Source of the DNA: Eledone cirrhosa
Lineage: Eukaryota
Reading direction: 5' to 3'
Assembly: GCA_964016885.1 (NCBI GenBank)
Contig: OZ024741.1
Coordinates: forward strand, 46,376,001 to 46,440,000
Length of the DNA: 64,000 nt
The position numbers were made by a program, and so were the translations under genes. The notes under the pieces are model-generated. The model did no database searches, was not told the origin of the DNA, and saw only the letters and a program-made list of their open reading frames with translations. This document shows positions 14,221 to 63,380 of the stretch, piece after piece; the stretch's first letter is position 1, and every line of letters begins with the position of its first letter.

Positions 14221-14414
14221 AACCAAAGAATTGTGGTAAGGAACCAGATGGACCATAACGCACCAGAGTACTCAATACTAACGGTAGTAGCGTGGGAAAT
14301 AGGAAAAAGTATGACCCCGACGGCAGAGCTCAAGCCGTTTCGACGTCTCTTTCTGGACTCCAGAAATAACCGTCGAAACGGCTTGAGCTCTTCTGTCGGG
14401 GTCATACTTTTTCA
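14221..14414. mobile_element. Hairpin mini-element, family D (tail ~14221-14302, fold-back 14303-14414)
   Basis: GAAAAAGTATGACCCCGAC...GCCGTTTCGACG / CGTCGAAACGGC...GTCGGGGTCATACTTTTTC, between (TA)n. Confidence 0.85.
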
Positions 14415-14570
14415 TATATATATATATATATATATATATATATTAGGGTAAACATTGATGCAATTCAATTCAAGCACTCAACGTACTTTTTCCACATAGG
14501 AGTGACGGAGTAAATATCGTATAAAGAAAAAGCGAAGTAGTTTCAGATGTTCAAATCCTTTAATAATAAT

Positions 14571-14644
14571 GCTGTGATATATATTTCATTGACGACACTG
14601 GCCACACTGTTCTGTGTGCGAGTGTCGTGACATCATCAGACAGC
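14571..14644 (-). ncRNA. Type I hammerhead ribozyme within a ~280-bp insert between (TA)n
   Basis: GCTGT-CTGATGA-...ACGACACT..CACAC agaaca GTGTG..AGTGTCGT...-GAAAT-ATAT-ATC-ACAGC. Confidence 0.88.
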
Positions 14645-14890
14645 TTGTTACATAATAAGGTTATGTTTCCGAGGCAATCCAAATTGGATCGACATGGGAA
14701 CGGATGAATTGCGTGTTTTGGGGTTCGCTTTTCTTTATATATATATATATACATATATATATATATAAACACACACACACACACATATATATATATATAT
14801 ATATATATATATATATATATATATGTGTGTGTGTGTGTTTATATATATATATATATATATATATATATATGTATATATGTTTATAACGTA

Positions 14891-15040
14891 TTGCACATAA
14901 TACGTTATTTGTAATGGAGACGTCCCCATTACAAATAACGTATTGTGTGCATTCTGATGTATAGGTTTGTGCGTTCTCACGTTCAAATCTTATGTCTCAA
15001 TCACCTTGGACTGTACGGATCCCTATTCCAATTGCTTTGT
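14891..15040. repeat. Small fold-back (14891-14950) plus tail, between TA repeats
   Basis: GCACATAATACGTTATTTGTAATGG / CCATTACAAATAACGTATTGTGTGC. Confidence 0.65.
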
Positions 15041-15064
15041 ATATATATATATATATATATATAT

Positions 15065-15345
15065 AGCCAAAATCTCAATTTGGGAGGATATAAGCTAGAC
15101 CGACTAAAATAAGTCGGTTTTACTTATGCAGTTCCCCGACCATGGTTTCTCGATCTCAAAAAAAAACATTAATCATTACATGACATTGGAATAATCAATA
15201 TTGGAAGAATTAAAGTTCCTTCAACGGTCCAGCTTATATCCCTCCAAATTGAGATGTTGGCTTAAGTTTGATATATTTTATTACTTCTCTGAGTAAATAA
15301 TTTATTAATATATCTTATCCTTACATTGAGATGTCGACAATTAAC
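15065..15345. repeat. Fold-back insert (arms 15065-15101 and 15226-15262) plus tail, between (TA)n
   Basis: AGCCAAAATCTCAATTTGGGAGGATATAAGCTAGACCG / CGGTCCAGCTTATATCCCTCCAAATTGAGATGTTGGCT. Confidence 0.65.
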
Positions 15346-61090: not shown

Positions 61091-61429
61091 TTATATATTT
61101 GATATATATTTATCCTTATCGAGCCCTCTTTGGATTTTAGTCTTCACATTTATTATTACTATATATATATATAGTATGATGACAGCATATATATGTGTAG
61201 GTATGTATATTCCCTCTGATAGTTTGTAAAATTTTTGCGTATATCTATATGATATACATACTAACACACACATATATATCCTACAAACGATCGTAAAATG
61301 ATGAATTTTTTAATATAAGGAACTGTTTGTTTTTATTCATTGTTTTTATTAATTTATATATATATATTGGGGGTCCTACTCGTTCCTATATATATATGTA
61401 TATATATATATATATATATGTATGTATTA

Positions 61430-62730
61430 AGTTGTTAAACAATATTCGATGATTATGTTAAAGAATGAGTTTTACAGTAGATTGGAAGCGTTTTAAATAT
61501 ACTTACTGCACTATAATATCTAAATTTGAGACGGATTCAAACTTATATATAAATGTGAATTTTTTTCGCTGTACTTTCGATCTCTTATTTATTTATTTAT
61601 AATATAATGTATTATAATATATATGTAGTTATATATTGTATTCTATACATTTTTAAATATTTTTAAATATACCTACCATACTTCTATATACATGATTCAA
61701 ATATAGAGAAAATATCCAAAATAAAAATGATTATAGACATTATTTTGAACTTTATACATGCACTCATTGTTCGTTTTTCTTATATGTATATATATATATA
61801 TATTTAAATGTGACATGTTGTTAAGAGTATAACTGTTAACATTTACCTAAAGTATACTACATTAATAATACCTAATATATATCTATATATATACATCCCT
61901 ATATCTAATAATATGTTGATATCTTGGTTGAAGAATAATTATACATATGTATGAATTTTATCTGTAACATATTATTTTATTTTATTTTTACCTTATATAT
62001 ACTGACTCATTAATATATACCTATATACATAATAGTTATTCAAATATTTATAACAATAAGTACTTCAAAAGATTTACATACCTAATATGTTGAGTTATTT
62101 GTTAAACTTTAGAGTTAGGTAATTAATCAACAGTATAATATTTCATTCTTTACGTGCCAGCTAAATCCTTTAAAATGTTATTCTCACAATTCAGAAGTTT
62201 AGAAATGATAACACACTTATCGAATTTATATAAATAATATATAATTAAATAGCAAATAATCCTGAAATCTGGAGTCTTCACATTAATATTATAAATTAAA
62301 TATTTCCAAATTCTAACCGTTTAAATATCGACCCCCCACCCACACACACACTTTACCTTTCCCTCCTTATAAATCTTTTTCCAGTGGCTATCACTGGCTG
62401 TTATGATTCACGAGGCGTTTCCCTAGATATTATCGTATCATACAATTTAAAATTTTAGAACACTTTAAGTATGCAACGTTTTTTCTTACTCACACATTCT
62501 CTAATGAATTCATTACGTTTTCGCACTCTCACACAGATAGTATATAAGCAACATTTTCTATCGGGTAATCACTACCTTGATTAAATCTTAACCATTTAAT
62601 ATCTCAGGGTATGTCATGTATCATTATATTTTGTCTGATGAGGACGTATTGTTGTACATCCGAAATATGTATAATAAAATGTAATTGATCAAAAGAACAT
62701 CTATTTTATTAATACTTATATTTTAATATA
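61430..62730 (+). mobile_element. AT-rich putative PLE 3' UTR between (TA)n
   Basis: Non-coding; ends with an HHR about 50 nt before (TA)n. Confidence 0.55.
62628..62680 (+). ncRNA. Type I hammerhead ribozyme
   Basis: ATTTTGT-CTGATGA-GGACGTA...TACATCC-GAAAT-ATGT-ATA-ATAAAAT. Confidence 0.8.
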
Positions 62731-62793
62731 TATATATATATATATATATATATATATATATATATATATATATATATATATATATATATATAT

Positions 62794-62992
62794 CAAGATG
62801 GATTCAGTTTGAAACTGGTTAGACCATTACTCAGCAGAGTACTCGATACTGGGGATAGTAGAGTATGGTTATATTAGAAAGAGTCGGGGCCCGACTGATA
62901 AGCTTTTGCCGTTTCAACAGCTAGTTCCATACTGTCTGTAACTCTGGAACTAGCTGTTGAAACGGCAAGAGATCAGCCGCCAGCCCGACTCT
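62794..62992. mobile_element. Hairpin mini-element, family D (tail 62794-62878, fold-back 62879-62992)
   Basis: TTGCCGTTTCAACAGCTAGTTCCA...TGGAACTAGCTGTTGAAACGGCAA. Confidence 0.83.
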
Positions 62993-63069
62993 CTCTCTCT
63001 CTCACTCTCTCTCTCTCTCACTCTCTGTCTCTCTGTCTCTCTGTCTCTCTCTCTCTATATATATATATA

Positions 63070-63380
63070 TATAGTAAAATAAAATAAAACAAAACAAGGA
63101 CGATTGGTTACTCCTTCATTACGTTTATTGGTTGGTGACATGCGTTTCGCAGATTACAGAGTCGGGCTAGATCGATACAGATCGAACCTTGAACTGATCA
63201 GTGGCAAAACGCGTGTCACCAACCAATAAACGTAATGAAGGAGTAGCCAATCGTCCTTGTTTTATTTTATTTTACTATAATACACTCTGTCTAGCTCTAC
63301 ACCTCGACACTGAAGTGAACCTAAACATCAAGTGCTCACTCGGGTGAACCTACAGTAACTCCAAGTTACACTCCCTGGAT
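63070..63380. mobile_element. Fold-back mini-element (arms 63070-63150 and 63203-63279) plus tail, in (TA)n
   Basis: The left arm ends at GAAAC-GCAT-GTC (minus strand) and the right arm starts AAAAC-GCGT-GTC, resembling an HHR 3' half. Confidence 0.8.

What the first reader, a model, noticed from the sequence alone, without database searches (positions are those of the whole stretch)
14221..63380. Half-ribozyme hairpin elements: fold-backs centred on hammerhead stem II
Seen: four diverged copies of one ~200-bp family (14221, 22184, 54700, 62794, plus a deleted copy at 49741) share an ~85-nt tail and a fold-back. Both arms carry GAAAC-G-G(T)C close to the centre, and CTGANGA is absent. Two unrelated families repeat this design: 52396 (GAAAC-CG-GTA) and 63070 (GAAAC-GCAT-GTC). 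Inverted arms at 15530 and ~61175 also stop inside an HHR core or stem II. The arms look more alike within a copy than between copies (CAAGCCG in both arms at 14.3 kb, GACCG at 54.8 kb), so the palindrome seems regenerated at each insertion. Established: PLE pLTRs carry minimal type I HHRs and often form inverted 5' junctions. Inference: cDNA copied through stem II snaps back and primes its own second strand. The ribozyme would then double as a priming hairpin and yield uniform MITE-like retro-hairpins. I am not aware of this being described but cannot search.
Basis: partly seen in the sequence, partly recalled or inferred. Interest (0 to 1): 0.8.

Follow-up and report, generated by a model that had tools for sequence, protein, structure and literature searches.

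The report
Penelope retrotransposon start-site hairpin fossils
These 200-base hairpins in TA repeats are short inverted pieces of Penelope-type retrotransposons, likely made when two DNA copies ran off the start of the element's RNA and were joined head to head, so they would mark where these elements start transcription and reverse transcription.

Summary
The hairpins are real, but they are neither a stem II snap-back nor a MITE. Family D is the 3' pseudo-LTR of a Penelope-like element (PLE) with Hydra-clade motifs. The parent has a complete type I hammerhead fold with a U3-A8 core, which is why CTGANGA was missing. Short copies stop at one site, +1, an initiator-like TTAGT in loop II: a 29-mer just downstream occurs 9,350 times, one spanning it 722. 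The predicted stem II snap-back junction occurs 0 times. Junctions are copy-specific (94 kinds in 106), either arm may reach further (47 vs 36), and the base before +1 is G in 59 of the first 100 listed non-T cases, as reverse transcription of a cap would give. In other PLE families the stop lies 30-31 nt after a TATA box, not at stem II. Best model: target-primed cDNAs start at two internal sites (+58, +139), run off the capped RNA 5' end and are end-joined. No RNA data were available, so the start site is inferred.

The parts
14221..14414 (-). Family D2 hairpin: tail-bearing arm = parent +1 (14359) to +139 (14221); inverted arm = +3 to +58
   Evidence: 95% and 93% identity to the parent
22185..22370 (+). 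Older D3-like hairpin joined across the short self-complementary stretch at +1 to +11; tail to the right
   Evidence: 75% and 88% identity
49743..49847 (+). Deleted D copy: inverted arm about +4 to +55 with a deletion, joined to tail +55 to +109
   Evidence: weak alignment
54701..54900 (-). Family D1 hairpin: tail-bearing arm +1 (54841) to +141 (54701); inverted arm +2 (54842) to +60
62794..62990 (-). Older D hairpin; one arm reaches about +7, the other about -13 (uncertain, 71-73% identity)
52399..52660 (+). Family F fold-back; both arms span a U3-A8-type minimal hammerhead (core about 52544-52576), centre upstream of it; tail on the right
63072..63380 (+). Family G fold-back; parent has CTGACGA and a long loop II; this copy is joined inside stem II by microhomology
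15449..15747 (+). Family H inverted pair; right arm holds a full hammerhead from 15655, left arm stops in stem II, 133 nt spacer
57970..61357 (-). Family I inverted arms 57970-58154 (intact core) and 61177-61357 (starts inside the core), around a GIY-YIG-like fragment at 60728-61090
24520..24969 (.). Family J palindrome, CTGAAGA core in both arms, centre about 120 nt upstream of the core
54919..55294 (.). Family K palindrome, core in both arms; family stop lies 31 nt after a TATA box in the parent
12509..12954 (.). Family M inverted pair with a CTGATGA core in both arms
42673..42722 (.). Short family E piece with CTGATGA at both ends; the family's stop lies 30 nt after a TATA box in three parents
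3815..7302 (+). Another PLE (RT, C-terminal GIY-YIG, pLTR with hammerhead at 7050, ends in TA repeats) with a long inverted 5' copy at 1-3886; not the parent of D
47848..48747 (+). Fragment of a PLE ORF with the same motifs as the D parent (WYNPP, KHFP, CxCX5C linker)
   Evidence: read by eye

Best explanation
Family D hairpins are short, inverted pieces of the pseudo-LTR of a Penelope-like retrotransposon inserted in TA repeats, likely formed when two target-primed cDNAs ran off the capped 5' end of the element's RNA and were joined head to head. Shown: the parent element and its U3-A8 hammerhead fold; two fixed outer ends (+58/60 and +139/141); a sharp inner stop at +1; copy-specific junctions; arms from the same source subtype. 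Inferred: (1) +1 is the transcription start in the pLTR; in D it lies inside loop II, so the RNA's 5' copy would carry only half a ribozyme. (2) The enzyme cuts both strands of a TA repeat and primes one cDNA from each, at the two internal start sites, as shown in vitro for an anole PLE. (3) Each cDNA stops at +1, often copying the cap as an extra base. (4) The free ends are trimmed and joined by microhomology or short inserts. Long copies would arise from priming on the 3' pLTR or from strand transfer.
For: Parent: longer copies lead into an RT plus C-terminal endonuclease ORF with RWR, DKT, CxCX5C, CNLC and CKH motifs. Hammerhead fold: 93.9% of 408 cells paired, three compensatory stem II pairs between D1 and D2, slid controls at most 41.7% (two subfamilies, so three events). 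Step at +1: 9,350 exact matches for +2..+30 against 722 for -24..+5 with one mismatch allowed. Of 156 copies picked by tail or site-1 sequence, 144 mapped: furthest reach -2..+3 in 58, 15 more at -5..-3, 9 read through the whole ribozyme. Copies with no fold-back stop there too: 9 of 20 at -4..+3 (sorted by eye). Outer end of the tail-less arm at site 1 in 73 of 106; tail-less arm reaches further in 47, tail arm in 36; 52 microhomology joins, 14 blunt, 40 with inserts. Base before +1 among the first 100 of 3,265 non-T hits: G 59, C 32, A 9; with both arms at +1 and one base between, G or C in 12 rows (10 loci), A in none (counted by eye). Other families: longest common reach 30-31 nt after a TATA box in E (three parents), F and K, and at a TTAGT in T; chance of such a TATA 0.0104 per site. 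Literature: both strands cut and extended, two internal RT starts defining the tail, uncleaved RNA as main template (PMC11167929); start site in the pLTR (PMC8557442, PMC2377424); 5' untemplated G attributed to cap copying in L1 (PMC9341517).
Against: No RNA evidence for +1. About 30% of tail-bearing arms end at +9 or further 3' (43 of 144), which needs trimming or later deletion. Later deletions could also produce the arm symmetry from a single folded cDNA, so that test is not decisive. Many G at -1 could come from the other arm, and the smaller script count was weaker (G 10, C 9, A 1 of 20). A local hairpin (-7..-1 with +7..+13) explains 7 of 106 junctions and the aligner over-extends there. 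D1 has no TATA at -30; J, G, H and the 7050 family show no TATA at their stop, and G and H have too few copies to define one. Arms share subtype in 60 of 65 copies, so two different RNAs are rarely used; both cDNAs must come from one RNA or one source, which is also what a fold-back predicts.
Confidence: 0.68

Rival explanations
1. One cDNA runs to the RNA 5' end at +1, folds or jumps onto itself, and copies itself back to site 1; later deletions blur the centre. This is close to the self-priming proposed for rotifer PLE palindromes.
For: Arms share subtype in 60 of 65 copies against 26.5 on shuffling (max 40), and are closer within subtype (2.8 vs 3.3 and 5.1 vs 5.9 differences). Junctions with 0-1 nt between arms occur. 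Self-priming was proposed in PMC3846280.
Against: The tail-less arm reaches further 5' in 47 of 106, by 29 nt in L204. Its outer end is fixed at site 1, which is also an end of long copies. One head-to-head join of two different families was seen (L091). Self-copying gives no reason to stop at site 1.
Confidence: 0.17
2. One reading: cDNA copied through both strands of stem II snaps back on the stem and primes its second strand.
For: The D hot spot lies inside the ribozyme; 63070 is joined within stem II; self-complementary spots of the ribozyme serve as microhomologies at some junctions.
Against: The native product is absent in 0 of 106 pairs and 0 genome-wide for D2 (one exact 29-nt pattern; comparable patterns gave 722 and 9,350). 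Most cDNAs never reach the 5' strand of stem II. Other families stop upstream of the ribozyme.
Confidence: 0.04
3. +1 is a structural block to the RT (folded ribozyme or bound protein) on a longer RNA, not the RNA's 5' end.
For: +1 sits in a conserved 4-bp inner helix of loop II; some arms pass it by 3-7 nt.
Against: Does not explain the G excess before +1 or the TATA spacing in E, F and K, where the stop is outside or at the edge of the ribozyme.
Confidence: 0.08
4. The hairpins are a non-autonomous family with its own master copies (MITE or SINE-like), with palindromes inherited and kept alike by gene conversion.
For: The 30 best matches to 54700 mostly share one centre; a few junctions recur up to four times.
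Against: That set was chosen by similarity to the query; unbiased copies have 94 junction types in 106; the two termini are not inverted repeats of each other; mirror forms of recurrent junctions occur about equally (4 and 3).
Confidence: 0.03

Closest known systems
Hydra-clade Penelope-like elements (Craig et al. 2021, PMC8557442; passages and section 11 read)
   Same: C-terminal GIY-YIG-type domain, DKT, CxCX5C linker, CxxC and CxH motifs, TA-repeat targets, inverted 5' copy, one-sided tail.
   Different: Core is U3-A8 with a long loop II and full stem III rather than the canonical hammerhead reported; tail about 81 nt rather than 30-40; most copies are only 60-140 nt arms; RWR instead of RWK.
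Anole Poseidon PLE in vitro (Frangieh et al. 2024, PMC11167929; parts 1-2 of 4 read, no supplements)
   Same: Two internal RT start sites bounding the tail, both target strands extended, AT-rich target, uncleaved RNA as template.
   Different: There the starts lie in the ORF; here about 92 and 173 nt upstream of the ATG in a tandem copy. The parts read do not describe run-off at the RNA start or joining of two cDNAs.
Palindromic inverted pLTR junctions of Adineta vaga Penelope (Arkhipova et al. 2013, PMC3846280; passages read)
   Same: Head-to-head pLTRs with a palindrome at the junction, optional tail, TATA and initiator-like motifs in the pLTR.
   Different: Explained there by self-priming on an antisense template; here the junction maps to a sense-strand start-site signature and either arm can be longer.
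U3-A8 hammerheads of Schistosoma Cercyon PLEs (Cervera and de la Pena 2014, PMC4209133; parts 1-2 of 4 read)
   Same: Same core covariation; that paper also notes hammerhead pairs 100-700 bp apart on opposite strands.
   Different: Minimal dimer-type there; D has a 5-bp stem III and could fold as a monomer.
Minus-strand strong-stop DNA of LTR retroelements (recalled, no call)
   Same: Priming near the RNA 5' end and run-off at the cap.
   Different: Primer is target DNA, not tRNA; two starts; the short products end up integrated.
Non-LTR retrozymes (bioRxiv 10.64898/2026.07.22.740005; part 1 of 5 read) and MITEs
   Same: Small, non-coding, high copy, pLTR-derived (retrozymes) or hairpin-forming (MITEs).
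   Different: No tandem units with whole ribozymes; no terminal inverted repeats; variable centre.

Membership tests
Hydra-clade PLE (parent) | Single ORF with RT and C-terminal GIY-YIG endonuclease | tested here: met
   Motifs read in L327, L328, L330; weak RT-region match to the window PLE, E 4e-4. Pfam gave no hit on three L328 fragments, so this rests on motifs.
Hydra-clade PLE (parent) | DKT motif, RWK motif, CxCX5C linker, CxxC and CxH, no CCHH | tested here: met
   DKT, RWR (variant), CNCPDRSTC, CNLC, CKH; one Cys only between the GIY- and YIG-like strands, against the list.
Hydra-clade PLE (parent) | Insertion into (TA)n | tested here: met
   Flanks.
Hydra-clade PLE (parent) | Canonical C3-G8 hammerhead in the pLTR | tested here: not met
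   A hammerhead fold is present but with the U3-A8 core. Reported as usual in the clade, not its defining character.
Hydra-clade PLE (parent) | Groups with Hydra elements in an RT tree | not tested
   No reference proteins were fetched; the clade call is by motifs only.
Type I hammerhead ribozyme (parent pLTR) | Three helices around the conserved core with an NUH triplet | tested here: met
   4-bp stem I, 10-pair stem II with three compensatory pairs, 5-bp stem III, GTC triplet; free folding gives stems I-III for D1.
Type I hammerhead ribozyme (parent pLTR) | Match to an Rfam hammerhead model | tested here: not met
   No hammerhead hit up to E 10 in L328:5650-5900, nor among the 150 rows listed for the window.
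Type I hammerhead ribozyme (parent pLTR) | Self-cleavage | not testable with these tools
   Needs an assay.
MITE (class II) | Terminal inverted repeats and a uniform inherited body | tested here: not met
   Asymmetric ends; 94 junction types in 106; derives from a retroelement.
MITE (class II) | Target-site duplication | tested here: inconclusive
   TA-repeat flanks hide it.
Non-LTR retrozyme | Head-to-tail units each with a whole hammerhead | tested here: not met
   Short copies are inverted and lack the 5' half of the core.

The most novel reading that the evidence does not exclude
PLEs replicate through strong-stop cDNAs: both target strands prime at two internal sites near the RNA's capped 5' end, and the stretch from the start site to the ribozyme cut acts as a retroviral-style terminal repeat for strand transfer. 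In family D the promoter sits inside the ribozyme, so only the 3' copy can cleave. The hairpins are failed transfers and map start site and RT start sites at base resolution in any PLE-rich genome.
Probability: 0.35. Interest if true: 0.8.

Novelty: new variant of a known kind. Interest (0 to 1): 0.58.

Why it matters
How PLEs make their inverted pseudo-LTRs and one-sided tail is still open; the papers read call for mechanistic work on it. Ten thousand or more short copies with two fixed outer ends and one fixed inner stop give a genomic test that links the in vitro finding of two internal RT starts to the inverted structure. They also offer a way to map PLE promoters from DNA alone, show a promoter likely placed inside a ribozyme, and warn that CTGANGA-only searches miss U3-A8 hammerheads and that such hairpins can be misfiled as MITEs or microRNA precursors.

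Tried and rejected
Searches for CTGANGA upstream of the D arm gave 16 and 37 hits; the 16 and 30 loci read were chance, mutated or chimeric cases. Two of them revealed the loop II sequence that led to the parent. An early guess that the parent was a Naiad was dropped (endonuclease is C-terminal). A splice acceptor or branch point at the stop was considered; spacing is too short in D2 and no common donor was seen. Cleavage at the GTC as the stop: few copies end at +41 (3 of 144). My own type I descriptor needing CTGANGA found nothing in the window; Rfam gave only sub-threshold microRNA-like hits. Run search: no RNA holder listed. Contigs of three runs of one sample show the family is abundant, but no piece spans the 54700 hairpin, so they say nothing on its junction. 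(strict extension) stopped early at point mutations and (banded alignment) over-extends at -7; both give the same hot spot. Earlier scan notes: nothing returned. Literature searches for octopus hairpin elements, PLE strong-stop and cap G with four terms returned no paper.
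Full report
Setting. The window lies in a 3.0-Gb animal genome (G000:C2:46376001-46440000), rich in TA repeats, with several PLE, LINE and SINE pieces.

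Finding the parent. CTGANGA searches upstream of the arm gave only chance or chimeric hits, but longer arms in those loci exposed upstream sequence. Patterns from it gave 722 and 529 places, often inverted pairs 0.03-3.8 kb apart. [quoted passage not shown] Pfam did not hit the three fragments tested and no tree was built, so the clade call rests on motifs. Long inverted copies typically have one end at site 1 and the other at the tail end.

The ribozyme. The parent pLTR reads stem I, TTGANAA, G, a 9-bp helix around a 33-nt loop, C, GAAAC, a 5-bp stem III, GTC, stem I. In 17 parent copies 93.9% of 408 cells pair, three stem II pairs change on both sides between D1 and D2, and slid controls reach at most 41.7% (the covariation is three events between two subfamilies). 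U3-A8 is a known natural core in Schistosoma PLEs (PMC4209133). Rfam did not detect it; cleavage is untested.

Coordinates. +1 is the A of TTAGT in loop II; U3 is at -45, GAAAC at +19, the cut would follow +41, site 1 is +58/+60 and the tail ends at +139/+141. In a tandem copy the ATG is at about +232.

Breakpoints. I took the first 92 of 10,980 exact tail matches and the first 70 of 1,475 site-1 matches, all on contig C1 and biased to young copies. After removing duplicates and one reversed row, 156 remained, 144 mapped and 106 had an adjacent inverted arm. Furthest reach was -2..+3 in 58 of 144, -5..-3 in 15, -25..-6 in 18 (9 of them at -7, where the aligner extends into an imperfect microhomology), +4..+41 in 42, and 11 went further upstream, 9 through the whole ribozyme. 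Strict extension on the first set gave -1..+2 for 29 of 68 tail arms and 24 of 44 inverted arms. Genome-wide, a 29-mer at +2..+30 has 9,350 exact matches and one spanning -24..+5 has 722. Of 38 arms without a mapped partner, 9 are long, 8 have a partner the script missed and 1 is joined to an inverted upstream part; of the other 20, 9 stop at -4..+3 (by eye). The stop therefore does not need a fold-back. The window copies 14221 and 54700 stop at +1/+3 and +1/+2.

Stem II snap-back predicts a tail arm reaching -35..-27 and an inverted arm starting near +8. No pair of 106 fits and the exact D2 junction has 0 matches. A single folding cDNA also predicts that the tail arm always reaches furthest; the tail-less arm does so in 47 pairs against 36 (p 0.27 for equality). 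Later deletions could mimic this. Junctions fall into 94 types: 52 with microhomology, 14 blunt, 40 with inserts, as expected of end joining (general knowledge).

Regeneration of arms. Arms share subtype in 60 of 65 scorable copies (shuffle mean 26.5, max 40) and differ by 4.3 positions against 7.0 for other copies' arms; within subtype the effect is small but significant (in the D1 set the right arms were partly fixed by the search pattern). Gene conversion was not separately excluded.

What +1 is. Among the first 100 of 3,265 D2 hits with a non-T base before +1, it is G in 59, C in 32 and A in 9; with both arms at +1 and one base between, it is G or C in 12 rows from 10 loci and A in none (by eye; some loci appear twice, and many G may belong to the other arm). 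A 5' untemplated G is attributed to cap copying in L1 (PMC9341517). In bystander copies of other families the longest common reach lies 30 nt after a TATA box in three E parents, 30 in F, 31 in K, and at a TTAGT in T. Such a TATA placement has probability 0.0104 per site; 3 of 10 families, or 2 of 9 if F and K are kin, is unlikely by chance (about 1e-4 and 4e-3, by hand). F, F2 and K share a further upstream motif. The 7050 family stops just before an AAGATGGCG stretch that resembles a YY1 site (recalled). J, G and H show no such signal. PLE start sites are known to lie in the pLTR. Relative to the ribozyme the stop is inside loop II (D), at the start of stem I (E), or 20-120 nt upstream (F, K, J, 7050), so it follows the promoter, not stem II.

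Model. An anole PLE cuts and extends both target strands and starts RT at two internal sites that bound the tail, on uncleaved RNA (PMC11167929). If both starts are used on the 5' pLTR copy, cDNAs of about 58 and 139 nt run off at the cap; joining them gives TA, inverted arm, arm, tail, TA. The parent, ends, stop and junction variety are shown; the start site, two-strand priming and joining are inferred. The strand-transfer extension (novel case) has no direct test here.

Known and new. Inverted pLTRs with palindromic junctions and a one-sided tail are described, with self-priming on an antisense template proposed. I found no paper tying the junction to the start site or to paired run-off cDNAs in searches; subscription journals and supplements were not searched. 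Papers seen: PMC11167929 and PMC4209133 parts 1-2 of 4; bioRxiv 10.64898/2026.07.22.740005 part 1 of 5; PMC8557442 passages and section 11; PMC3846280, PMC2377424, PMC9341517 passages; PMC3088659 listing only.

Verdict. Interest 0.58.

Noticed in passing
window 26469-29825: A 3.4-kb AT-rich near-perfect palindrome (93%), with related inverted pieces out to 35425 that include RT and GIY-YIG fragments at 33298-34026 and 31173-31841; likely another PLE with a long inverted arm.
   Followed up: no
window 1-1700 and 3903-5602; 2762-3886 and 6178-7302: Inverted duplications of the window's PLE at 100% and 99% identity, so a very young insertion or an assembly fold-back.
   Followed up: no
L193, L138, L137 parents of families F, F2, K: Otherwise dissimilar pLTRs share a GAGCCACTTTT stretch just upstream of the TATA box, a candidate PLE promoter element.
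   Followed up: partly
L086, L089, L091, L031: Chimeras between D and families E, K or J; in L086, L089 and L091 the D part starts at or next to +1, suggesting template jumps or joins between different PLE families.
   Followed up: partly
family E loci, e.g. L104, L202, L224; window 42673: Family E hammerheads have T-T in place of the G10.1-C11.1 pair, a covarying stem I, and their stop at the first base of stem I; the tail resembles D's.
   Followed up: partly
window 57970-58154 and 63146-63220; L053, L114: Hammerhead-like motifs with very long loop II regions (about 55-110 nt) in families G and I.
   Followed up: partly
window 21790-22011, 25824-26010, 34178-34373, 36408-36607, 53390-53605, 55487-55605: An abundant ~200-bp repeat that looks like a tRNA-derived SINE (label recalled, not tested).
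   Followed up: no
window 37503-42518 and 43344-46737: A nearly intact LINE with a zinc-knuckle ORF1 and a 1106-aa ORF2, and a broken RTE-like LINE (labels by eye).
   Followed up: no
window 52453-52579, 14306-14410, 24711-24779: The hairpins give sub-threshold Rfam microRNA-precursor hits, a possible source of false annotation.
   Followed up: no
window 61040-61160 and 22553-22596: Tail pieces of family T, whose stop is at the same TTAGT motif as D.
   Followed up: partly
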